From the NCBI GenBank assembly GCA_008632985.1, contig QPGO01000202.1, positions 111,691 through 131,690 on the forward strand: a DNA stretch of 20,000 bases. Reading direction: 5' to 3'. This document shows positions 1-11,582 of this stretch, in pieces. This DNA comes from Psammoneis japonica. Its lineage: Eukaryota. Within the stretch, counting starts at the first letter, position 1. Each line of letters starts with the position of its first letter. The notes below the pieces were generated by a model. It ran no database searches, was not told the DNA's origin, and saw only the letters and a program-made list of their open reading frames with translations. The position numbers and the translations under genes were made by a program.

Positions 1-399
1 ACATGACCATTTCGTCTTGACAATCAATCCTGTGACAGTTGTGAACTCGATTGTTGATTTTTTGTGCTTCAACCATCTGTCAGTTGGATTTTAATTGTCA
101 TTTGGACGTTTCTTTTTGACATGCCGGTGTCATTTTGTCATTCCGAAGGCACTGCTCAATGGGAATCTTTTGAAAATGACCCGTGACGTGCAACCCACAA
201 ATCAATTGAGGACGCCTGTAGAATCCACACGTTTTTGCACTGAAACTGTCATGTTCACACAATTTGTGCAAAAATGGACTTGACTGTCATCGGGTCAGGT
301 GCATTTTTGCAAATGTGTTGAAGAAAAAATGCGCCTGATCAGAAAACAGTCAAATCCATTTTTTGCAAAGTTAAAATTCACTGAGGACAGACAGACAGA

Positions 400-2872
400 C
401 TTGTCTTGGTGCTGTCCCACACGATTTCTGCACAATGACTCTACAGCGCGAAAGATTGCCATTGTCATGCACTGGTGGACAAATGTCCATTTTTCTTTTC
501 TTTTTTTTTCTGAATCTTTGGCACATCTCGTGTGTCGACATGACAAGTTGTTTGTGTCTTGCCTCGTACATTGTGCAGTGCAACCACACGGGTGTTGTGA
601 GATTGTCTTTTGCCAGTGTGAAGTGGACACTGCAATGCCGCACACCAATCTGTCACAGAGTTTTTTTCTAACCGTCCTTTAAAACAAGGCAATTTTGTCC
701 TTGTGACATGAGCATTTTTTGATCTCGCTCGCCTCCACGAAAAGTGTTCATGTGACATGTCGCGTCCGACAATTTGGAGGGAAATGTCTTTGTCCCATTT
801 TGACGGTGGGACATTGTCGCAGGATTCAATTTTCTTCACAGTAAGTCGGCTGATCGTGTCGATCAATGGCATTGCAACGACGTTTGCCTTGCCCTTGATT
901 GACATTTGTTCGGGACTGAAGTTTTCCATTGCAAGTCGCCAACGTGTGACTTTGTCCATTGTGTCTTGTGATCCGCAAATTTTTTAATCTGTTGGCCAAA
1001 CAGTGTGTTTCGGAATTTTATGAGTTTTTTCACTGTGGACAGAAGTTCTTTTTTCCATTGCAACGCATGACATTGAAATGCGTGTGTGACAACAATGTAG
1101 TTTTTGATTTGATGCGCTCCATGTTTTCGGAGACTTTTTGTTCCGCACTTGCACTTTTGCCGTTTGACCTTCATTGAGGTGAATCTGGCCAGCATTGTAC
1201 AGGAGATTGTTGAGACTGCGTGTTTCGACAGCAATGATGTGCAACAACGAGTTGTCGCAGTGTTGTTTGCGTTTTTCTCGTGTTGCGATTGCTTGAATCG
1301 CCTCCATTTCCTTTGCAATCGAGTGCATGTCATTGCGTGTGGAAGTCTTGACAGTTCATTTCAAGTTAAATGGTGAAGGACTTTTGTTGTCAAACTTCCA
1401 AGCAACTGTTCCAGTCATTTGAATGCCGCACCAAGCCATCACTTGTGCAGGTGACATTTTGAAGTCACTTTTTGTCAGGCACAAACAATCGTGTGCAGTC
1501 GTTCTGACAACTTCAAACCTGTTGTGAGTTCACTCATGTGTTGTTTAAAAACATCTGGGGCTCCACAGCTTCTCACAGGAAGTCCACAGCACTTTTTTTC
1601 TCCCCACGGCATGATTTTTGTGTTGGCACGACATGTGCTTTTTTAATTTGATGTGACAGTGTCCCACATTCAAATCGAGTGAGGTCACATGTGTGAACCT
1701 TCTAGTTTCTGAAGCACATCCTGAACATTTGGCAGAGGATGCGGCGCACGTGCTGGCCTCTTGTTCAGTTCACGAAAGTCGGGTGGAAACCGAGCTTTGA
1801 CCATTTTTCTGTTTTTTAAAGGTTGGAGCTGTCCACTCAGAACTGTTTGTTTTCCTTTGGGACTTTTAGCTTACAGAGCCTTTCAATCTCCTTGCGAGTC
1901 GCCTCCAAGGCTTGTGGAAACAGGAAACCTTTTGCGTGACACGGTTTTGAGCCAGCGAATCATTTCTGCCTTTTTCCCAGGCTTCCCAACACCCAGCAGA
2001 GCACACAATTCGTGAACAGACCCAAATTGTTCTTCGGATTCACTCTGGATCATCTGATCAAATTGGCAATTTTCTTCACTGAGGGCATCAGAATCCAACT
2101 CTTTGCCCTCATGCTCTTTTTCTTTGTTCGAGGAACTCGCTTTGAGTGTTTTTTAAACCGCCTGATCAATCATGACGTTCAACTCTTTTTTTGCGAGCGG
2201 CATTTTTGTCATCGTGATGCCACGTGCGATTGCCATTTGAACGGCGCCGTTTCGGATCACGCTCAATGTGTCCATGGTGTTCTTTCGCCAGCTCATTTTC
2301 AGAATGGTTTCAATCCGTGATGCAGGTGTTCTTTTTTCAAAGATTGCACCTTTTGTTCACTTTGGATTGTTCAGGCACCACACAGGAGACCATTTTTGGA
2401 ACCAAATTTGGAGCCATTTTGGTTTTGGAATCAACTCTGCTGTCAGAGCCTGATTTGACATGGTTCATTGTCATGGACGTCATGAACGACTTCCAAACGA
2501 CTCAAAACTTAATCAGCTCATCAAGAGCATGTTCCAGCATTTCAGCATTTTGGGCAGTCGACTGATGCCACCATCCTTGTGGCGCGAGTGACAGCTGATG
2601 GCTCGCAGCTCGGTTTCCCGCTAGATTCAACTTAGAGTCGATTGAAGGGTCACACAGATGCTCTTCATTGACGTCTTGGGTCCAACAGAGGCTTTCTTGC
2701 TGTTGAGCTGCTCTGGTTTCTTCAGATCATCTTGAAAATGGCAACTCTGATTCTGAAGTGCAGTTCTTGGAAAGACATGAGACAAGAGACTCTTGAGGCA
2801 CTTTCCAACGGTTCCATCTTGCTCTTTGGACTCGAGGTTTGTCGATTCGGTCTCTAAAAAATCTCCAACAGT
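400..2872 (-). mobile_element. Degenerate, internally deleted Ty3/Gypsy internal region (gag, RT, RNase H, integrase remnants), related to the element at 11178-16354
   Basis: Peptides match the intact copy: KCLKSLLSHVFPRTALQNQ..DLKKP (gag, 2720-2810), DALSEENCQFDQM (gag end), KELLSTVKKLIKFRNTLFGQQ and VTRWRLAMENFSP..KGKANVVA (RNase H), KWDKDI. Many frameshifts and deletions, and the protease region is missing near 1960-1990. Left boundary uncertain; right end is cut by an LTR at 2873. Confidence 0.9.
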
Positions 2873-3239
2873 TGCAGCATGCGACTGTTGTGTGCACATT
2901 CATAATTGTGTGTTGTGTGTGTGTCAATCGCACCACAGTCGTGGATGCGCACAAAGGACAGAACGATCACACAGAGTTGATCGGATGTCGAAAATTACAA
3001 ATACGATCGATTGACGATGTTGACATCTTGCGTGTCAATGGCAATCGTATCCGGACAATCTGTTGTCACGAATATATTCTCCGAAAGGCCTTTTGTCTGT
3101 GGAAGCAGTGCAGAAGCTTTGGGCCATTGAGAACTTGTTCGGAGAAACCAAAAATCACAGAGTAAAATTTAATCTCATAATTTCCACTTTTCGCACACTG
3201 TTCTACTTTCGTTTGCACTCGTTCTTCGAGCATGGTGCA
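2873..3239 (+). mobile_element. Solo LTR (367 bp), subfamily related to the Gypsy LTRs, opposite orientation
   Basis: TGCA...TGCA termini. Reverse complement aligns with LTR 11178-11556 (e.g. tctccgaaaggccttttgtctgt, tttcgtttgcactcgttcttcgagcatggtgca). Flanks cagt/gctt give no TSD. Confidence 0.9.
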
Positions 3240-3620
3240 GCTTGTCACTGCAACTCCCATTCCAGCAACATCTCTCAGATGAACAGTGACTGTGACATGC
3301 CACAGCATTTTGGTGACAACCCCTCATTTGCTTGCAATTTGGTGGAACAAGAGAATGTCCAGGGGACAGTGGAGGCTGTCATGGTGGTCATGGAGGAAAG
3401 GCATCATGGCAAGGCAACTGCTGCTTGCAAATGGTGCAAGGACATTTCTCAGCACTTGGCTCATCCTGTGTTTCAGAACATCCCTCACTGTGGAGGAAAG
3501 CATGGCATTTTTGGCATGCTCCCCTGGGAGCTGTTGCATGCCTTGCACTTGGCTTTTTGCAAGTGTCTGCTTCAACAATGCAGGAAACTTGAACAGACAA
3601 CAGGGAGAAGGGGGGGTCAT
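3240..3620 (+). pseudogene. Plavaka-like DNA transposase fragment
   Basis: KHGIFGMLPWELLHALHLAFCKC (3498-3566). After restoring H/C to Y it resembles the [DE]-x-L-H-x-L-x-L/K-G-x-x-K motif I recall from Plavaka transposases. Recognised by eye only. Confidence 0.45.
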
Positions 3621-4080
3621 TGATGCTTGAGAGGCATGGAGAGAGACCAGTCGGCAGTTTGATGAGTCATCTGTCTAAAATGCCTTGCAGAACATGCAGA
3701 GTTTGCACTGAAACCTGTGTGGAAACCTTGCATGTGAGAACAACAAATGCCAAGAAGAGTGCTGAGCAAATGAGCCAACAGGGCTTGACGCCAATTGTTT
3801 TCCACTGCATGAGATTGCCAATGATTGTAGAACAAAGGCATGTTGACAAAAGAGCACATCTGAACAGGCAGGTGAGAACCATCACCACACCATCAGAGAA
3901 AGGCAACATCAGCACCAGAGCTTGTGCAGAAAAACATGCAGAGGGTGCGGCCGTGAAGCTGAGGCAGAATTGTGCAATCATCCAAAAACAGCAGAGCACT
4001 GCAATGAAACTGCATTTTTTGAAGACAGCCACGTGCACTTCATTCAAATCAACCAAAAGTGGAGTTAGAAAAACCAGTTG

Positions 4081-4448
4081 TGCAGCATGCAACTGTTGTG
4101 TGCATGTTTGTGATCACACATTGTTTGTGTGTCAATCGCACCACAGTCGCGGATGTGCACGAAGGACAGAATGATCACACAGAGTTCATCGGAAGTCAAA
4201 AATTGCAAATGCAATTGACAGACAATGTCGACATCTCATGTGTCAATGGCAATCACATCCCAACAATCTGTTGTCATGAACAACTTTTTCGAAAGGCCTT
4301 TTAGTCTGTGGGACCAGCACAAGAGCTTTGGACCATTGAGAACTCATTCGGAGAAACCAAAAATCACAGAGCAAAACTCAATCTCACAATTTCCACTTTT
4401 TGCACTTTGCCCCACTTTTGTTTGTGCTTGTTCTTTGAGCATGGTGCA
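4081..4448 (+). mobile_element. Second solo LTR (368 bp), same subfamily as 2873-3239 but more decayed
   Basis: TGCA...TGCA termini and collinear with 2873-3239 over its full length. Differences are mainly TA>TG/CA and CG>TG/CA. Flanks gttg/actg differ by two transitions. Confidence 0.9.
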
Positions 4449-4591
4449 ACTGTTGTGGATGACACAAAGTTGGACAAGACACTTGAAGTTTTGCAAAAAA
4501 ATTGTGGTTGTCCATTGCCAGTGATGCCAACACACAATCTGAGGATGAAATTGGCCATTTGGACTTGGATGAGTGCTCCTGACAGGAGGCC

Positions 4592-5490
4592 TTGGATGAA
4601 CTGTTTGAATTGACAGAGAAAAGAGTGGTCAAAATGGATGGGAAGGAGTGGTCTGCAAAGAGTGGGAAGGCCCCCAAAACTTCAAGGAAATGCCAAGTGC
4701 ATTTTGGCAACTGGGGCAATCCAAGGTTGAGTGTTCCCATTCCACACACTCCAAGAAATGCAGACATGGCTTGGCATGGCTCTGTCAGGCTCATCCAAAA
4801 GCATTTGGAAAATGAGGACAAGGAGATGGAAGAGCAAAAACAAGGTGCATCATTGATCGCTTGGGCAAGGCAGTGCCAAACACATTCTGCAAGGCTTGGT
4901 CCATTCACAAAGAGTGGCTTCATTGAGTGGCAAAAGAGTTGGCCAATGGCAACAAAATGTTGTGCTCAATGGAGGATGAGCACCTGCACACAACCCTTGC
5001 CATCAACAGTTGCTGTGGTGGTGGGGTTGCTGGCATTCATGTGGACACACACAATGCATCCATGCATTGGAGGGGATTGCCAGACTTTCATTGCAACCCA
5101 ACCGGCAATGCAGACATTGCCCTCCTTGTGTGTGCTCCAGTCAAGAAAGGTGTGTTGAAGCCAATCTTGGTGTTGCAACATGCCAAAACCATGACTTTTT
5201 TCAATGCAGGATCCTTTTGTCATGGAGCAATTCATGTGGGGATGCACCTCACTCATTTGAACAGTTTGTTCTTCTGTGCAAGTGAGTCAAACAAATTGCT
5301 CAGGCCCAAGCCAAAGTGGGTTGGCAATCACAGCAAGAATGGACAACATCTGTTCCTTGCTTGGCACACAAAGCAAAACTTGCCGATGGTGGATGCAACG
5401 GATGAGGTGCTGAAAACACAACATGGAACCTTGTTTGTTCATGATGAAGATTGGCAATGGGTGCAATCAAATTTGAAAGAACAGAAATGA
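4592..5490 (+). pseudogene. 2OG-Fe(II) dioxygenase remnant, TET/JBP-like
   Basis: TTLAIN...GIHVD (HxD at 5038-5046), distal His in TFFNAGSFCHG (5221-5223), then GQHLFLAWH (5341-5367), which restores to GR-x-LFLAWY and would supply the 2OG-binding Arg strand. Probable frameshift near 4870-4930 joins ORFs 4592..5158 and 4927..5490. Confidence 0.55.
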
Positions 5491-5549
5491 GTGCAATGAC
5501 CTGAGCAGCGATGGTTCCGACAAGGATTGGACATGTCTGCACAAAAGGT

Positions 5550-7540
5550 CAGACAGAATGGAACCAGTTCATGACTGCAGTGAGGCATCCAAAATTTGGC
5601 AACTTCAGGAAAGGTGACAACTGCAATGACAATGCACACAAGGAGCTGCTTTTGCAGACAACAGACAGGGTTGACACAGTTGGAACATTCCAAAAAGGAC
5701 ACAACTGAGACACATCAAACTCCAGCAGATCCGTTGGCCTCATCAAACATGTCATCATTGTCTGCCATAGAATGCTCCAGCTCCTTGGTTGCATGTCACT
5801 TGTTTCCATTCAGTTGCACCTCATTGTCCAGCTCGGAGGGTGGGAAAATGACTTGCTCCACTGGGAAAAGGTTGCTGTGGTCTGTTCCCTTGGTGCGTGA
5901 CAGAAAATCAAGAGTTGGTCCAACCAGGACATCCATTGCAACAGCAGCCAAATCTGCATTTGTGGGGCAAAAGCTGGCTGATTTGGTTTCTCCACCTCCA
6001 AATTGTTGCTTCAGGAAAGAAAGGCCCATGTTCACTGAAAGTGCCATCCAATGCACGGTTGGAGGTCATGACAATGTTGCGCCACTTCATGAAATGTGCA
6101 ATGTCTGGGGCAGCATGCTTCTGCTTGGATTTAGCCAAAGGGACATTGGCAATGAAGTGATTGTGCAAACGCGCACATTTTTGAACAACACCATCATTGG
6201 CTGGATCACTGCTTTTGGGTGCAGCTGGCATGTCATCCATGTTGCACAGGCTGTCAATCAGATCATCCTCATGATGCCAGAACACATTGGCAAGGAGAAA
6301 CTTTGCAGTGATCAACTGGGTGAGTGCCTCCTGAGCAGCACTTTCCATGCAGTGGGTCACAGCTGGCTCATTGTTCTTGGCGTAAAAGTTGGTGACTTTG
6401 TCGTGGCTCTGACTGCAGTCTTTCATTGGCATTCAAGTGCAACAAAGGCTGACAGCAGCAGCAAGAGGCAAGAAAAAATCTGCCCACAGAGATGGGGCCA
6501 ACCATCCAAAGTGGCAGGTGGTGCAGAGACAGGCTGCATTGTGACGACACGCAACAGCACTGTTTTCCTCAACTGTTGACACAGTGCCAGCAGGAGGGGC
6601 AGTGAACAAGTCAACAGGAGTGTGCTGGCCTGCAAAAAAGACAAATGAACCACAAACCCATCATGAGTCACACAGAGAAGATTCAAAGAAGAGGGGACAA
6701 GGATTTGCATCACCTGCATCACCATGATGGGAGCCACAGACTCCACAAAGGACTGTGGGAAACAAGGCACTGCCGGCCTTTTTGGGTGGCAGAGTGTGGT
6801 TGATTTGTGTTCTGAGACAGGAAGCAAAGGTGTTTTGTTCTTGATTCATGAAGTTGAGGGCCAAGGGGCCAACCTTCTCCCAAAACTTTTGACAAACTTC
6901 AGGTTTGTTGAATTCATTGTCAGACCTGTCCTTGTCATTTTTTGGGTTTTTTGGGAAGACATGTTCCCAAACCATCAAGGCAAAGGGACATTTGGAGTTT
7001 GCACCAGCATCCAGGAGTGGATGGCAATTCACAGTGTTGCCAATCTCTTGTTTGGATGGAAAACCCAGAGAGAACAGAGCAGCATGACCCACCTTTGAGT
7101 TGCCCACTTTCTTCACAAAGTTGGTCTCCAAATTTGTCATTTTGCTGGCATGAAAGGTCTGTTTCTGAGCTTTCTAGAGAGAGGCAACGGCCTTGTTGGC
7201 GGTGACAATTTTTGCACCACAGGCGTTGTGCTTTTGCTGCAGTTGCTTGCACATCTTTTTGTTGTGGTTTTTGCATGGGCTGCACATCCTCCAGCAAAAC
7301 AAAAGCCACACTCTGCAATCATTGCCAGACATTTGGTTTCACTTTGTCATGCTGCTTGAGAGAAATTCAACATCTTCTTTTTGAATTTGAGGGGAACAGT
7401 TCTCAGACACATCATCAGAGGAGTCGGCTTCTTCATTGATGGAGGCTGCAGCAGCAGTGGCAGCTGCTGGGTCATTGACTGGTGGAGCAGCTGTGGATGA
7501 CATGTTCCAGCCCTGGGTGGAAGCTTGTGGTGCTGACATG
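5550..7540 (-). pseudogene. Decayed large ORF of unknown function, convergent with the dioxygenase remnant
   Basis: Successive protein-like minus-strand segments (MSAPQASTQG..AAATAAAASINEEADSSDD; LETNFVKKVG..WEKVGPLALNFMNQ; NADLAAVAMDVLVGPTLDFL) broken by stops and frameshifts. No family recognised. Confidence 0.35.
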
Positions 7541-9412
7541 TGACATGATCATTTTTGTCGTCTGTTGCATGTTTCACACTCACATTTCTGCATGTGATCT
7601 TTCAAAAAATTGTTCCACACTCCCTGTTTTGCAAAGCCCCAGATGTTTCATTTGGCACATTTGTGGGAACAACAATGCACCAGGCACATCCTTCAATGTC
7701 TGAAGAATGCACCTGGCTGAGTGAGAACTGACTTGCTTCAATCATGAACAAGTTTGTGCGTTCTCAAAATTGCCTCTTTTTCTGTTGGCAATCATTGACA
7801 TTTTCATTGCCTGACAATTTTACTGCGGAGCTTGCACGCAGAATTGCATGGGCCCAATGTCACATGGATTCCCACCTGCATCTGGAGCATGTCGGACAAA
7901 GAGCCTTGACATCACAGAGGGCCAGTCCTGGAGAGCCTTGCCTGGGCTGCCCAGAAGGACGAACTTGGCAACCTCCACCATGACCTCCACCATGGCTGCC
8001 AGCACCACTGGCACGACTGGCATTGTTGGGGCCAGCAACTTGTTGGTTTGGCTTCTTCCATTTTTTGGGCGGCATGGTTGATGACAGCACAAAATGGAAA
8101 AAGGGGTTGATTTAAGTCCTGGAAATGGGAGTGCAAAGGCAGAAGTGTGTGAAATTTCCAATCTTGACAAGGGCACTTTAATGTCATAAAATCAAACTTG
8201 TTGAACAAATGTGGGATGTCAATGACTGAATGATTCATCAAGGTTTTCAAATCATTCAAACCATTGCATTGTGGCAAAAAGATTGAATTTTAAAATGAAA
8301 TTGTTGCTGAGAAAGAGATGCTGGTGGGAATCAACTGATGGCGATGCTCACAGTTTGGCCAAAAAACGAGTTGTCCCTCCCTCACAAGACACAGAAAATG
8401 CAAACTCAAGTTGCAAGCAATGCATGAAAATGTGAGCGGCAGTGACAAGTGGCGGCATTGTGGATGGGACAGAATGAAATGCAGGACACAAGGTGAGAAA
8501 GAGGAAACAAGTGGCTGGTGCATGGAGATCAGGTGCACAACGCAAACAACGGACACTTGTGCACATCTTTGCACACAGAAATCTGCACAGCAACCTGACA
8601 TGATGCAAAGGAAGATTGGCAATGGGGAAGGGCACAAAGGCGAGCCAAAGCAATGCATGAGACAAGATTGCAGGAAACACAAGACACACGCAAAAACTGA
8701 TCATTGGCACAAAGGTTTGTCCAGTTGCAGGCAATGCTTTGCCCAGCCAAACAGAAGGAACCTGAGATTGATCATTCATCAGCGGCTGCAACACAGTGGT
8801 GTTCACTTCCCTTCATCTGGTTTGTGCCAATTGACGTTGTGTGAGTTTGTCTTTTTTTTTACTCAAGAACAAGCATGTGAGGTGAGAAATTGGGCTTCAT
8901 TGGAAAACCTCTGCTGCTGTGATTTTTTGCACATTCATCACCAACATTCATCCAGTCCATCAAGTTGTGCATGTTTGCACACAAACGTCAGAGCCACACT
9001 CACCACTCTCAAGGCTGCAGCATTCAGATGGGGTGAGATGTGGCTCAACCCCAGAGCCATGATTGCAAACATTTTCAGCTTTGCTGCTGTGCAACGGTGT
9101 GACCATGATTCTCACCTGCCCACTCCAACTGCTTCTCTCTTGACACACACTCATTTCATCAAAAGTGAGTGGCATTGAGCCCTTTGGCTTGTTTGCTCAT
9201 CATCCTTCTTGGCATTTTTCTTCCTTGTGTGCAAAATTTCCACACAAGTTTCAGCACAATCTCCACACATTCTGAAAGTCAACTTGCCAAACTGTTGACT
9301 GCTCTCCATCCATGCCTCTCAGGTGTCAGTGACCCAAATTCTGTCCATTGTCAATTTAAATTCCATGCTTCACATGGTGAACAACCTTCTGTTGTTGTTG
9401 CTCTTCAAAGTT

Positions 9413-9850
9413 TTGTCATCCATTTGCTTCTCCCATTGGCTTTTCCGTGCAAGATCTGGCACTGTTTCTGTGTGACACCACTGACAATCTGTGTGTCACT
9501 TCTCTGGACTGCTTTTGTCCTTGCCAATTGGCCCCCAATGCTGCTTCTTTTCTCTGCTGTTCAATCAAATCCTTCACTCTTTGGGGTGAATGTGCTGCTT
9601 CTGTTGTGGCCTTTCCAGCAAGAGTGCAAGTCATCCTGTGGCATCATTTGATTGTCATCCTGTTTGCTGCTCCCATCAGCTTTTCTGCACAAGACCTGGC
9701 ACTGTTTCAACATGCAACAAATGTTTTTGCCAATGACCTGCTTGTCTCACCTTCACGGCTTCTTTTGCAAACTCTTTTGGCAACCTGTCCAAATGCAATT
9801 GTCCTCTGCAGCTGTGGTGTGCATTCTGTGGCTGTCATCAGCAAGCACAC
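9413..9850. repeat. Degenerate direct repeat, period about 240 bp (probably an 80-aa protein repeat on the minus strand)
   Basis: 9421 catttgcttctcccattggcttttccgtgcaagatctggcactgtttc versus 9661 tgtttgctgctcccatcagcttttctgcacaagacctggcactgtttc. Minus-strand translations NSARSCTEKPMG and NSARSCAEKLMG. Right boundary approximate. Confidence 0.65.
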
Positions 9851-10899
9851 AATGAATTCCTCATGTGAGTCATTCCTTTTCAGTTGTTTTGGTGGGGTGT
9901 CACCTTCTGGTGGTGCCCATTCTGGCCAATCCCATGCAAGCTCCTGCTGCACTGAAACAGTGCACTGGGAGTGTGGGTCAGCTGGCACCGGCGTGGCTGG
10001 CAATGGAGTGACTGCACTTGCAACTCAGATTTCTTTTTTTTTTTGTTCACTGGGGGTGTGGGTCGCTTGTTGTCAGAGTTGCAGGATGGAAGCACAGCAG
10101 CAGTTTAAGTGCAGATTTTGGGTTTTGCTTTGCTTTGACTGATGCAAGCAGCACAAAGCAGTGTGACTGCCTTGAAGTGCAGATCAGGAAGAGCAGTGTG
10201 CAACCCCACGAATGACATGTTGTGATGTGGCACTTGCTTCACTGTCAATGGAAAGACAGCAAGCAAACCCCTCAACAAGAAGCTTGTGTGCCTCAGGTTG
10301 GCAGCAGCAGCAAAGCACATGCCCCATTCATTCCATCCAATGAGCGGCTTTGACAAAGGCAAGATGCCCAAGTTGTCACTCAGCTGTGCTGAGGCAAAGC
10401 AAGGAAGACAAATCAGATGTTGGTAAAAAGGAACCTCTTCTCCAGTCTCCTGGGATCAGCTGGTCAGGAATTCACTCAAAGTGATGCAGAGATGTTTGTC
10501 CAAGCACTGGTCAAAACAAAGAGAAGAGAGGCAGAGTTGGGTGCAATGCAAACTGACATCTCCAAGAGAGCTGCTTTTGCTGCCAGTTTGTGTCTTGAAA
10601 CAACAAAAAAAATGACAAAAGACAGAAAAAGAAAGTTCTGTGGTTGCATCAACTCTGTCAATGCCAGCAGCAACAAAGGGAAAAGCAAAAAAAATCTTTG
10701 TTCACCCATGGTGTGACCCATGTTGTGCCAGTTGCATCGTGACAAATGGCTTGTGCACAATCACATCTGGCACACATCAACCACCTTTGTGTGCATGTTG
10801 GTCAGGAGGGGTGCAGAGGTGCACTTGCAGGATTCAATGGGGTCCCTGTGTGCAAGTTCATGGTGCAGTGTCTGCCCTTGGGCAGATCAAAACATGGTT

Positions 10900-11177
10900 G
10901 CAGGCACACACTGTCAAAGCCATGTGCATCCATGGTGTTTGTTGGGCTGTTCTCAACTTGAGAAATGTTGTTCACTTTGAATGCTGTGTCCTGTTTGCCA
11001 GTCTTCTTGTTCAGCAGTTGGAGTCAATCCACCACTCAGCTGTCATGAGCAATGCAGCACTTGTTCTTTGCATCCTTTAAACTCAGGATGTTTGCAGCTG
11101 TGTTCTGTGATCCAAACTTCATGTCTCCTCATCCAGTCATGGTGGCATGGTGCTTGTCCAAGGCACACCAGTGGACA
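10900..11177 (-). mobile_element. Ty1/Copia remnant, downstream half of the protease region (split by the Gypsy insertion)
   Basis: Minus strand reads AANILSLKDAKNKCCIAHDS (11040-11100), resembling the ANILSL....KYRVTYDS segment of diatom-type Copia polyproteins. Joins 16355 across the TSD. Left boundary uncertain. Confidence 0.65.
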
Positions 11178-11556
11178 TGCACTATGCTCGAAGAACGAGT
11201 GTAAACGAAAGTATGACGAAGTTCAAAAGGTGAAAATTATGAGAATCATTTCTGCGCAATCATTTTGGGTTTCTCCGAACGGGTTCTCAATAGCCTGAAC
11301 CTTTTGCACTGCTCCTACAGACAAAAGGCCTTTCGGAGAATATGATCGTGACGACAGATTGTCCGGATACGATTGACATTGACACGTAAGATGTCAACAT
11401 CATCGTACGATCGCATTTGCGATTCTCGACATCCAATCACTTCTGTGTGACTGATCTGTACTTCGTACGAACCCACGATTGACGTACGATTGAAACATAC
11501 TTTTATTTAATATATAGATATACATATATAATACGTACATGACAACGCACATTGCA
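11178..11556 (-). repeat. 3' LTR (379 bp)
   Basis: Gap-free alignment to 15976-16354, TGCA...TGCA ends, adjacent to the PPT. Confidence 0.97.
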
Positions 11557-11566
11557 TTCGCCTCCC
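11557..11566 (-). other. Polypurine tract
   Basis: Minus strand GGGAGGCGAA directly abuts the TG of the 3' LTR. Confidence 0.85.
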
Positions 11567-11582
11567 TAATTGCACATTAGAG

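What the first reader, a model, noticed from the sequence alone, without database searches (positions are those of the whole stretch)
3240..11170. About 8 kb nearly devoid of TpA and poor in CpG: old repeats converge on a TG/CA sink
Seen: I count only about 17 TA dinucleotides in about 7.9 kb, where several hundred are expected from base composition. CG is also scarce and TG/CA dominate. The stretch covers unrelated elements (DNA transposon, solo LTR, Copia, unknown ORFs) in both orientations. Inference: this is the end state of TA>TG/CA plus CG>TG/CA, and the process is regional or chromatin-directed rather than family-specific or retro-specific.
Basis: partly seen in the sequence, partly recalled or inferred. 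Interest (0 to 1): 0.8.

Follow-up and report, generated by a model that had tools for sequence, protein, structure and literature searches.

The report
TpA-to-TpG/CpA hypermutated repeat tract
Old mobile-element DNA next to a ribosomal RNA gene has had nearly every TA step rewritten to TG or CA after it entered the chromosome, which matches a TA-specific DNA hypermutation reported so far in only one alga.

Summary
The composition claim holds. Window 3240-11170 has 18 TA where 559 are expected (o/e 0.03) and 63 CG where 435 are expected (0.14). CA is at 1.95 and TG at 1.78. TA+CG lost (913) roughly equals TG+CA gained (854).

The direction and timing of the change can be read in the window. 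The two LTRs of one Ty3/Gypsy insertion (11178-16354, 4-bp target duplication GACA) differ mainly at TA. Of 26 TA in one LTR, 18 are TG (10) or CA (8) in its sister and none is CG. At 18 conserved-Tyr columns the element has Cys 5, His 5, Tyr 3. So this is a DNA-level, post-integration TA>TG/CA process that hits both strands.

CpG decay is a separate process confined to a nested domain. TA depletion reaches well beyond the flagged span (1-11177 and 12000-18140). It spares 0.8 kb of the young element and stops about 520 bp from a 28S rRNA gene.

The same signature was measured directly in Bigelowiella natans (bioRxiv 10.64898/2026.01.13.699255). The source organism here is unknown. I rate this a new member of a very recently described kind.

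The parts
25..2859 (-). E2: older, degraded copy of the same Ty3/Gypsy family as E1. TA o/e is 0.10-0.14 and CG is near normal (0.68-0.81).
   Evidence: blastn to E1 at 66-80% identity. Purine/pyrimidine-coded identity is 80-86% over 465-2859. tblastn hits to Gypsy Pol fall at 756-1953. None of the 36 TA in E1 and none of the 18 TA in E2 is shared.
2873..3242 (+). LTR copy C of the Gypsy family, inverted relative to E1's LTRs. It has 10 TA and 20 CG.
3240..11177 (.). Core tract, saturated for both TA loss (o/e 0.03) and CG loss (o/e 0.14). Its content is unrecognisable, but it holds more long ORFs than chance predicts.
   Evidence: Composition. No Pfam hit in six frames. No relatives for ORF 5584-6576 among 1.84 billion representative proteins or in the Atlas. 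No relatives for ORF 8339-9175. ORF excess over shuffles.
3564..3852 (+). Left copy of an inverted pair of an unclassified repeat. Its partner is at 9109-9383.
   Evidence: 70% nucleotide identity and 85% purine/pyrimidine-coded identity, 252 bits against a noise ceiling of 97 bits
9109..9383 (-). Right copy of the inverted repeat pair.
4081..4451 (+). LTR copy D, a solo or truncated Gypsy-family LTR lying inside the CG-depleted domain. It has 1 TA and 8 CG.
   Evidence: Against C: 82% nucleotide identity but 97.3% in purine/pyrimidine coding. Of C's 20 CG, 5 are kept, 9 are TG and 5 are CA. Of C's 10 TA, none is kept, 6 are CA and 3 are TG.
11174..11177 (.). Target-site duplication GACA, left copy.
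   Evidence: Read directly from the sequence
11178..16354 (-). E1: complete-looking Ty3/Gypsy insertion with 379-bp LTRs at 11178-11556 and 15976-16354. The integrase ORF is 11583-12800 and the RT/RNase H ORF is 12857-14785. TA is partly depleted from about 12000 rightwards, and CG is normal.
   Evidence: Pfam RVT_1 2.7e-16, RT_RNaseH_2 2.2e-08, Integrase_H2C2 1.8e-13, rve 9.6e-10. LTR pair. 861 homologues, best at 60% identity. Tyr is 0.5% against 3.8 +/- 0.4% in 120 homologues.
11178..12000 (.). Spared island inside E1, covering the 3' LTR and the last ~0.45 kb of the internal region. TA o/e is about 1 (66 TA) and includes a (TA)n run at 11504-11536.
16355..16358 (.). Target-site duplication GACA, right copy.
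16359..18139 (.). Continuation of the TA- and CG-depleted tract on the far side of E1, with 2 TA in 1.8 kb. It contains purine-rich subrepeats at 17043-18121 that look like rDNA spacer repeats.
18657..20000 (-). 3' part of a eukaryotic large-subunit rRNA gene with normal TA and CG. It serves as the spared neighbour and internal control.
   Evidence: Rfam RF02543, 857.5 bits, model positions 1994-3401. Composition.

Best explanation
The tract is repeat-derived and otherwise unclassifiable DNA that has been driven almost to completion by a TpA-specific transition process acting on chromosomal DNA after integration. Each TA becomes TG or CA, depending on which strand is hit. The first hit destroys the target, so CG is never produced.

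A second, separable process is ordinary CpG>TpG/CpA decay, most likely deamination of methylated cytosine. It has acted only in a nested older domain, about 3500-11177 plus 16355-18000. Both processes feed the same TG/CA pool, which explains the arithmetic.

A younger Ty3/Gypsy element (E1) inserted into the already saturated tract and has since been partly converted. A 0.8-kb end of it and the neighbouring 28S rRNA gene are spared, so targeting has sharp boundaries.

This is the same kind of process that a 2026 preprint measured directly in mutation-accumulation lines of Bigelowiella natans.

Shown here: the signature, its direction, that it happens after integration, that it hits both strands, and where its boundaries lie.

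Inferred: that it is enzyme-driven, most likely adenine deamination to inosine at 5'-TA-3' by an ADAT2/TadA-like deaminase as the preprint proposes, and that it serves as a defence against mobile or foreign DNA.
For: (1) Composition. TA 18 of 559 expected, CG 63 of 435, CA 1.95, TG 1.78. The deficit is 541+372 = 913 and the surplus 398+456 = 854.

(2) Sister LTRs of E1, bounded by a perfect 4-bp duplication GACA. There are 31-32 mismatches in 384 aligned bp. Of 26 TA in LTR A, 8 are kept, 10 are TG, 8 are CA and 0 are CG in LTR B. Of 10 TA in B, 8 are kept. CG is kept at 24 of 26. Purine/pyrimidine-coded identity is 98.75%, so nearly all differences are transitions.

(3) Polarity. At the A/B sites that differ, the outgroup LTRs carry TA (4), the opposite derived state (13), the same derived state (14) or something uninformative (15). 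At 18 columns where at least 70% of 40 homologues have Tyr, E1 has Cys 5, His 5, Tyr 3, Phe 2, Trp 2 and Ser 1. Every other residue class is 48-100% conserved. E1 RT has Tyr 0.5% and Cys+His 7.8%, against 3.8 +/- 0.4% (minimum 2.9) and 4.1 +/- 0.5% (maximum 5.5) in 120 homologues.

(4) E1 against E2. None of the 36 TA in E1 and none of the 18 TA in E2 is shared, while other dinucleotides are 35-63% conserved. There are 51 TG<->CA swaps, which indicate independent hits on ancestral TA.

(5) Both strands are hit: TG 10 vs CA 8 and Cys 5 vs His 5.

(6) CpG decay is separate. D kept 5 of C's 20 CG (9 TG, 5 CA) although C and D are 97.3% alike in purine/pyrimidine coding. CG in E1/E2 is conserved (36-50%) like other dinucleotides.

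(7) Controls. A 59%-identical Gypsy relative from a metagenome has TA o/e 0.90. The 28S part has TA o/e 0.7-1.4.

(8) Preprint 10.64898/2026.01.13.699255 (Results and Discussion read). 230 of 231 de novo mutations in two viral inserts were A>G or T>C. Per the preprint, all of the GC-biased mutations fall on TpA. It reports 124 TpA-depleted / CpA+TpG-enriched clusters, with RT and DDE domains enriched among TpA-depleted CDS. Eight consecutive 1-kb windows here pass that paper's cut-offs.
Against: The source organism and the rest of its genome are unknown.

No reads could be laid, so the assembly was not checked against raw data. The one run that holds 55% of the sampled words may be the assembly's own data.

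The spared island inside E1 does not fit a simple regional model. It could instead reflect gene conversion from an unmutated copy.

Because TA is its own reverse complement, the sequence cannot tell whether the base that is attacked is the A or the T.

The purine-rich spacer repeats (17043-18121) may lack TA partly through amplification of a TA-free unit.

The preprint's cut-offs are quantiles of the B. natans genome and may not transfer to this one.
Confidence: 0.78

Rival explanations
1. Same signature, different chemistry. The attacked base is the thymine of TpA, for example through enzymatic oxidation or hypermodification to a 5-hydroxymethyl- or 5-formyl-uracil-like base that mispairs with G. 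This would give T>C on one strand and read as A>G on the other.
For: TA is palindromic, so TA>CA and TA>TG are the same event seen from the two strands. The near-equal counts (TG 10 vs CA 8; Cys 5 vs His 5) fit either chemistry. From recall, not from any call: some protist lineages replace thymine with 5-hydroxymethyluracil preferentially at TpA, and 5-formyluracil mispairs with G.
Against: No evidence in this window points to a modified thymine. The only experimental report of the signature proposes adenine deamination and names an ADAT2-like candidate, though it does not test it.
Confidence: 0.12
2. Sequencing or assembly artefact. Heavily modified bases in silent chromatin (for example methylated C at CpG and a modified A or T at TpA) are systematically miscalled, so real TA and CG are written as TG/CA.
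For: Both 'mutations' hit self-complementary dinucleotides of the kind that modification systems mark. No raw reads could be laid. The only holder run may be the assembly's own data.
Against: Per-base miscalling on both strands should often give the double product CG. It is found at 0 of 18 changed TA in the LTR pair and 0 of 10 in C against D, and CG itself is depleted. Conversion is close to all-or-none over kilobases (97% of TA). Homologous sites in different copies carry opposite products (51 TG<->CA swaps; 13 opposite states), as independent heritable hits would. The same signature was obtained as de novo mutations from Illumina data in B. natans.
Confidence: 0.05
3. RNA-level A-to-I editing (ADAR-like) of retroelement transcripts before reverse transcription, so that copies arrive already edited.
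For: Part of the TA loss in E1 and E2 could have been inherited from already edited or mutated source copies. The preprint's Discussion notes that ADAR favours U upstream of the edited A.
Against: The two LTRs of one insertion are identical at integration (established knowledge of LTR retrotransposition), yet they differ at 20 TA sites. The changes are strand-symmetric. The most saturated DNA shows no retroelement similarity and extends into rDNA-spacer-like repeats. AA is not depleted (o/e 1.23).
Confidence: 0.03
4. A non-mutational or untargeted cause: selection against TA, GC-biased gene conversion near the rDNA, or a genome-wide dinucleotide bias.
For: TA is mildly under-represented in most genomes (general knowledge). 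The tract lies next to rDNA, a recombination-prone setting.
Against: GC content is only 0.42-0.50 and AT, AA and TT are not depleted, so there is no general AT>GC drive. The depletion is 30-fold and falls in non-coding, degraded DNA on both strands. Two segments of the same window keep TA o/e near 1.
Confidence: 0.02

Closest known systems
TpA hypermutation of integrated viral DNA in Bigelowiella natans (Mettrop et al., bioRxiv 10.64898/2026.01.13.699255). I read the abstract, Results and Discussion and ran a term search; I did not see the supplements.
   Same: Both show an exclusive TpA>TpG/CpA transition signature. Both show TpA depletion coupled to CpA+TpG enrichment in kilobase clusters. 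Reverse-transcriptase-bearing sequences are among the depleted ones. Targeting is local with sharp contrasts to neighbouring DNA. Eight consecutive 1-kb windows here pass that paper's cluster cut-offs.
   Different: There the rate was measured in mutation-accumulation lines, on an NCLDV insert and a virophage insert that are still far from saturation (rho TpA 0.45 for the NCLDV). Here the evidence is historical and the tract is saturated (0.03). The carriers here are LTR retrotransposon copies, unclassifiable DNA and rDNA-spacer-like repeats. A term search found no mention in the preprint of CpG, LTR elements or an rDNA neighbourhood. It is not known whether this window comes from B. natans.
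Repeat-induced point mutation (RIP) of ascomycete fungi
   Same: Both are dinucleotide-context transition hypermutation of repeated or mobile DNA at the DNA level, after integration. Both leave kilobase tracts of skewed dinucleotide composition.
   Different: The direction is opposite. RIP turns CpA/TpG into TpA (C>T). Here TpA is consumed and CpA/TpG accumulate. The RIP indices are inverted: TpA/ApT = 0.04 and (CpA+TpG)/(ApC+GpT) = 2.0. Dependence on duplication was not shown here.
CpG decay by deamination of 5-methylcytosine in methylated repeats (plants, vertebrates, some fungi and protists)
   Same: CG>TG/CA is seen in the nested domain. LTR D kept 5 of the 20 CG present in its close relative C, with 9 TG and 5 CA. 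CG o/e is 0.07-0.31 in 3001-11000.
   Different: Methylation itself was not observed. CpG decay accounts for only about 40% of the TG/CA surplus. It is absent from E1, E2 and C, which are nonetheless TA-depleted.
Deaminase editing of retroelements (APOBEC C>U on cDNA; ADAR A>I on dsRNA)
   Same: Both are context-dependent transition hypermutation that inactivates mobile elements. Here that shows as Tyr>Cys/His throughout E1 Pol.
   Different: Those systems act before integration and on one strand. Here sister LTRs diverged after integration and both strands are hit equally.

Membership tests
TpA>TpG/CpA hypermutation (B. natans type, bioRxiv 10.64898/2026.01.13.699255) | Substitutions are almost exclusively A>G / T>C and fall on TpA | tested here: met
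   In the LTR pair, 18 of 18 changed TA became TG or CA, and about 23 of 31-32 mismatches are TA-associated. C against D: 9 of 10. Purine/pyrimidine-coded identity is 98.75% and 97.3%.
TpA>TpG/CpA hypermutation (B. natans type, bioRxiv 10.64898/2026.01.13.699255) | [quoted passage not shown] | tested here: met
   Windows 3001-11000 pass (8 in a row), as do 1-2000 and 16001-18000. Caveat: the cut-offs are 5% quantiles of the B. natans genome.
TpA>TpG/CpA hypermutation (B. natans type, bioRxiv 10.64898/2026.01.13.699255) | Targets are foreign or mobile DNA, with host genes spared | tested here: inconclusive
   Gypsy copies are hit and the 28S gene is spared. However, 7 kb of the tract has no recognisable origin, and the window holds no protein-coding host gene for comparison.
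TpA>TpG/CpA hypermutation (B. natans type, bioRxiv 10.64898/2026.01.13.699255) | Present-day de novo rate elevated about 1000-fold, and episodic between lines | not testable with these tools
   No reads could be laid. Only a historical estimate is possible: TA sites in LTR B were lost at 18 of 26, against about 2-3% background divergence.
TpA>TpG/CpA hypermutation (B. natans type, bioRxiv 10.64898/2026.01.13.699255) | Host is B. natans or a relative with an ADAT2-like candidate deaminase | not testable with these tools
Fungal RIP | C>T at CpA producing excess TpA: TpA/ApT high and (CpA+TpG)/(ApC+GpT) low | tested here: not met
   TpA/ApT = 0.038 and (CpA+TpG)/(ApC+GpT) = 2.0. The polarity tests show that TA is the ancestral state.
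5mC-driven CpG decay | CG>TG/CA with CG o/e far below 1 in the affected DNA | tested here: met
   CG o/e 0.14. C>D: 14 of 20 CG became TG or CA.
5mC-driven CpG decay | Cytosine methylation present at CpG in the tract | not testable with these tools
   No modification data are available.
ADAR-type RNA editing of retroelement transcripts | A>G on the sense strand only, acquired before integration and so shared by both LTRs | tested here: not met
   Sister LTRs differ at 20 TA sites. TG 10 vs CA 8 and Cys 5 vs His 5.
Ty3/Gypsy LTR retrotransposon (element E1) | Direct LTRs ending TG...CA, a short target-site duplication, and Pol order RT-RNase H-integrase | tested here: met
   379-bp LTRs that start with TG and end with CA, with a GACA duplication. 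RVT_1, RT_RNaseH_2, Integrase_H2C2 and rve occur in that order on the minus strand.

The most novel reading that the evidence does not exclude
The window comes from an organism other than B. natans. That would make TpA-directed DNA editing a wider eukaryotic genome-defence system that polices LTR retrotransposons and rDNA-flanking heterochromatin as well as viral inserts. It would have stable boundaries set by chromatin or small RNA, a measurable extended context preference (TTA/TAA refractory), and possibly one dual A/C deaminase behind both the TA loss and the CG loss.
Probability: 0.25. Interest if true: 0.85.

Novelty: new member of a known kind. Interest (0 to 1): 0.62.

Why it matters
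A natural process that rewrites A:T to G:C at one dinucleotide in chromosomal DNA has so far been reported in a single 2026 preprint. That report was for two viral inserts far from saturation, and no enzyme has been demonstrated.

This locus shows what the end state looks like: TA o/e 0.03.

The two LTRs of one element give a built-in clock, which shows that the process acts on integrated DNA, on both strands, one hit per site.

The locus separates the TA process from CpG decay.

It also provides sharp natural boundaries, inside one retrotransposon and 0.5 kb from a 28S gene, that any targeting model has to explain.

There are practical consequences for annotation. Because TAA and TAG disappear (29 of 433 stop triplets on both strands), hypermutated elements keep long open frames and protein searches fail. 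Purine/pyrimidine recoding recovers the homology: 82% becomes 97% and 66% becomes 80-86%.

If a DNA adenine deaminase is responsible, it would be a natural counterpart of engineered adenine base editors.

Tried and rejected
- Whole-genome comparison: no genome is held for this window.
- Earlier notes of this scan: four look-ups by place, words and sequence returned nothing.
- Sequencing runs: one holder (X1, share 0.55) and two same-sample runs with next to none of the words. No RNA holder is listed. Names are coded.
- Laying reads: the first request failed because of short pieces between Ns.
- Cluster look-up for names of Gypsy homologues: unavailable.
- Pfam on six read-through frames of 1-11501 and 16300-20000: 0 families at E <= 0.1. 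Pfam on 19 long ORFs: hits only in E1.
- tblastn with 6 Gypsy polyproteins: only E1 and E2 matched.
- ORF 5584-6576: the best Atlas hit scored 0.76, below the level that means anything, and 0 of 1.84 billion representatives reached E <= 0.001.
- ORF 8339-9175: 79 candidates, none at E <= 0.01.
- Metagenome scan with E1 RT: 1 locus of 1 kb at 59% identity with normal TA. It served only as a control.
- Purine/pyrimidine-coded self-comparison: very noisy. Block-shuffled queries reach 97 bits, so only hits above that were used. It gave no evidence that the DNA after LTR D (4452 onward) is Gypsy-internal sequence.
- C and D as the two LTRs of one element: their flanks show no matching duplication, so this is left open.
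- Apparent C>T excess in E2 against E1: not interpreted, because overlapping-dinucleotide effects of TA changes confound it.
- Literature: four full-text searches found only the B. natans preprint for the TA>TG/CA direction. All other hits concerned RIP, ADAR, APOBEC or base editors.

Full report
**1. Observation**

Window 3240-11170 (7931 bp; A 0.27, C 0.22, G 0.25, T 0.26) holds 18 TA where 559 are expected (o/e 0.03). It holds 63 CG where 435 are expected (0.14). CA is at 1.95 and TG at 1.78. AT (0.84), AA (1.23) and TT (1.28) are unremarkable. The Poisson probabilities are about 1e-209 for TA and 1e-110 for CG.

The missing TA (541) and missing CG (372) sum to 913. The surplus TG (398) and surplus CA (456) sum to 854.

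The 500-bp and 1-kb profiles show that the flagged span is only the core of a larger pattern.
- TA is also strongly depleted in 1-3239 (o/e 0.14), in 12000-16354 (0.15-0.35) and in 16355-18139 (2 TA in 1.8 kb).
- CG is depleted only in about 3500-11177 and 16355-18000.
- Two segments keep normal values: 11178-12000 (TA o/e about 1) and 18140-20000.

**2. Anatomy**

*E1.* A Ty3/Gypsy element lies on the minus strand at 11178-16354. It has 379-bp LTRs (11178-11556 and 15976-16354) that start with TG and end with CA, and a perfect 4-bp target duplication GACA at 11174-11177 and 16355-16358. Pfam finds RVT_1 (2.7e-16), RT_RNaseH_2, Integrase_H2C2 and rve in the Gypsy order. There are 861 homologues, the best at 60% identity.

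*E2.* An older copy of the same family occupies about 25-2859.

*LTR copies C and D.* Two further copies of the family's LTR, inverted relative to E1, lie at 2873-3242 (C) and 4081-4451 (D).

*The right end.* The right end of the window (18657-20000, minus strand) is the 3' part of a eukaryotic LSU rRNA gene (RF02543, 857.5 bits). The purine-rich subrepeats at 17043-18121 look like rDNA spacer repeats.

*Order of events.* The DNA on both sides of E1 has the same extreme composition (10501-11000: 0 TA, 1 CG; 16401-16800: 1 TA, 3 CG), while E1 keeps its CG. I infer from this that E1 inserted into a tract that was already saturated.

*The core tract.* I could not assign its content.
- No Pfam family was found in any read-through frame.
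- tblastn with Gypsy Pol gave nothing.
- The 331-aa ORF has no relative among 1.84 billion representative proteins and no Atlas match worth quoting.
- The 279-aa ORF has no relative either.
- An inverted pair of a short repeat sits at 3564-3852 / 9109-9383.

The labels "DNA transposon" and "Copia" are therefore unsupported. The tract still holds 12 stop-to-stop ORFs of at least 150 aa. Dinucleotide-preserving shuffles give 4.45 +/- 1.9, and 0 of 200 reach 12. This suggests remnants of real coding sequence that stay open because TAA and TAG have nearly vanished (21 and 8, against 404 TGA, on both strands).

**3. Direction, timing and strand**

*Sister LTRs.* The two LTRs of one insertion are identical when it integrates; this is established knowledge of LTR retrotransposition. 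Here they differ at 31-32 of 384 aligned positions.
- Of 26 TA in LTR A, 8 are kept in B, 10 are TG, 8 are CA and none is CG.
- Of 10 TA in B, 8 are kept in A.
- 24 of 26 CG are kept.
- In purine/pyrimidine coding the pair is 98.75% identical.

*Polarity from outgroups.* A RIP-like reading would have TG/CA turning into TA. At the sites where A and B differ, the outgroup LTRs C and D carry TA (4) or the opposite derived state (13), as well as the same derived state (14); 15 are uninformative.

*Polarity from protein.* At 18 alignment columns where at least 70% of 40 homologues have Tyr, E1 has Cys 5, His 5, Tyr 3, Phe 2, Trp 2 and Ser 1. All other residue classes are 48-100% conserved. E1 RT has 0.5% Tyr and 7.8% Cys+His. 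The 120 homologues have 3.8 +/- 0.4% Tyr (minimum 2.9) and 4.1 +/- 0.5% Cys+His (maximum 5.5). TAY>TGY gives Cys and TAY>CAY gives His, so TA was ancestral. None of the 120 nearest relatives shares the signature.

*E1 against E2.* Over 2374 aligned bp, none of the 36 TA in E1 and none of the 18 TA in E2 is shared. Other dinucleotides are 35-63% conserved. There are 51 TG<->CA swaps, which are the trace of independent hits on the same ancestral TA.

*Strand and single-hit behaviour.* TG and CA products are balanced (10 vs 8; Cys 5 vs His 5), so both strands are hit. The double product CG is never seen (0 of 18 and 0 of 10). This is what a sequential process predicts when the first hit removes the target.

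**4. Two processes, two domains**

C and D are 82% identical as nucleotides but 97.3% in purine/pyrimidine coding. Even so, D kept only 5 of C's 20 CG (9 TG, 5 CA), and C kept 5 of D's 8. In E1 against E2, CG is conserved at 36-50%, like any other dinucleotide.

CpG decay therefore depends on position. It is not simply a matter of age. It is absent from DNA that is already strongly TA-depleted.

The TA process also has sharp limits.
- Inside E1, TA o/e falls from about 1 (11400-12000) through 0.5 (12001-12200) to 0.15 (12201 onward).
- On the right it recovers from 18140, which is 517 bp from the end of the 28S gene.

Surviving TA in the depleted parts are enriched for TTA/TAA contexts: 82 of 120 against 55 of 137 in the two undepleted parts (odds ratio 3.2, P = 6e-6). 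This hints at an extended context preference. The control set is small and includes a (TA)n run.

**5. Mechanism**

What is shown is a TpA-specific transition process that acts on DNA after integration, hits both strands and allows one hit per site, plus a separate CpG decay.

What is inferred is that an enzyme drives it. The preprint's proposal is adenine deamination to inosine by an ADAT2/TadA-like enzyme. From recall, this fits the U33-A34 context of the tRNA substrate of such enzymes.

Because TA is palindromic, the sequence allows an attack on the thymine equally well. I keep that as a rival at 0.12.

The other rivals and the evidence against them:
- RNA editing before reverse transcription is contradicted by the LTR pair and by the strand symmetry.
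- Biased gene conversion or selection is contradicted by normal AT/AA/TT frequencies and a GC content near 0.47.
- An artefact from miscalled modified bases is made unlikely by the absence of CG double products and by opposite products at homologous sites. It could not be excluded with reads.

**6. Comparison with what is known**

Four full-text searches found one report of this direction of change: Mettrop et al., bioRxiv 10.64898/2026.01.13.699255. I read its abstract, Results and Discussion and ran a term search on it. I did not see its supplements.

In B. natans mutation-accumulation lines, 230 of 231 mutations in an NCLDV insert and a virophage insert were A>G or T>C. Per the preprint, all of the GC-biased mutations fall on TpA. 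The rates were about 1000 times the background rate. The paper also reports 124 TpA-depleted / CpA+TpG-enriched clusters and an enrichment of RT and DDE domains among TpA-depleted CDS.

This window meets that paper's cluster criteria in eight consecutive 1-kb windows.

A term search found no mention in the preprint of CpG, LTR elements or an rDNA neighbourhood. The LTR-clock evidence, the saturated end state, the separable CpG domain and the context bias are therefore additions.

Fungal RIP is the mirror image: TpA/ApT is 0.04 here and (CpA+TpG)/(ApC+GpT) is 2.0.

I could not tell whether the window comes from B. natans.

**7. Verdict**

I file it as a new member of a kind described only in 2026.

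Interest is 0.62. It would be higher if the source proves to be a different lineage, and lower if it is one of the preprint's 124 clusters.

Noticed in passing
18657-20000 (minus strand); N runs at 19101-19195 and 19261-19359: The 3' part of a eukaryotic LSU rRNA gene (RF02543, 857.5 bits, model positions 1994-3401) with normal TA and CG. The window therefore sits at the edge of an rDNA unit, or of an orphan rDNA fragment. Two N runs lie inside the gene.
   Followed up: partly
17043-18121: Purine-rich subrepeats (for example 17081-17177 / 17431-17527 at 94% and 17180-17271 / 17656-17747 at 95%). They resemble rDNA intergenic-spacer repeats and lie inside the TA- and CG-depleted tract.
   Followed up: partly
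11504-11536 vs 16302-16334: A (TA)n microsatellite in E1's spared LTR corresponds in the sister LTR to short runs of CA followed by short runs of TG. This suggests locally strand-coordinated hits, or later slippage of the products.
   Followed up: no
11583-14785 (minus strand): E1's integrase ORF (405 aa) and RT ORF (642 aa) remain open although most conserved Tyr are replaced by Cys or His. TA>TG/CA cannot create TAA or TAG, so hypermutated elements look intact when judged by ORF length.
   Followed up: yes
3240-11170: There are more long ORFs than dinucleotide-preserving shuffles give (12 against 4.45 +/- 1.9), mostly on the plus strand in two runs (4583-6579 and 8339-11080). These may be remnants of genes that are no longer recognisable.
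   Followed up: partly
all TA-depleted parts vs 11178-12000 and 18140-20000: Surviving TA are enriched for TTA/TAA flanks (82 of 120 against 55 of 137; TTAA 29 of 120 against 10 of 137) and poor in ATAT, ATAC and GTAC. This may reflect an extended context preference of the process.
   Followed up: partly
270-363: A 94-bp imperfect palindrome (75% self-complementary as nucleotides, 87.5% in purine/pyrimidine coding) inside the old Gypsy copy E2.
   Followed up: no
2859-2873 and 3242: E2's internal region ends at 2859, equivalent to E1 position 15620, and is followed by an LTR copy in the opposite orientation. This indicates a rearrangement or a nested insertion. No matching target duplications were found around C or D.
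   Followed up: partly
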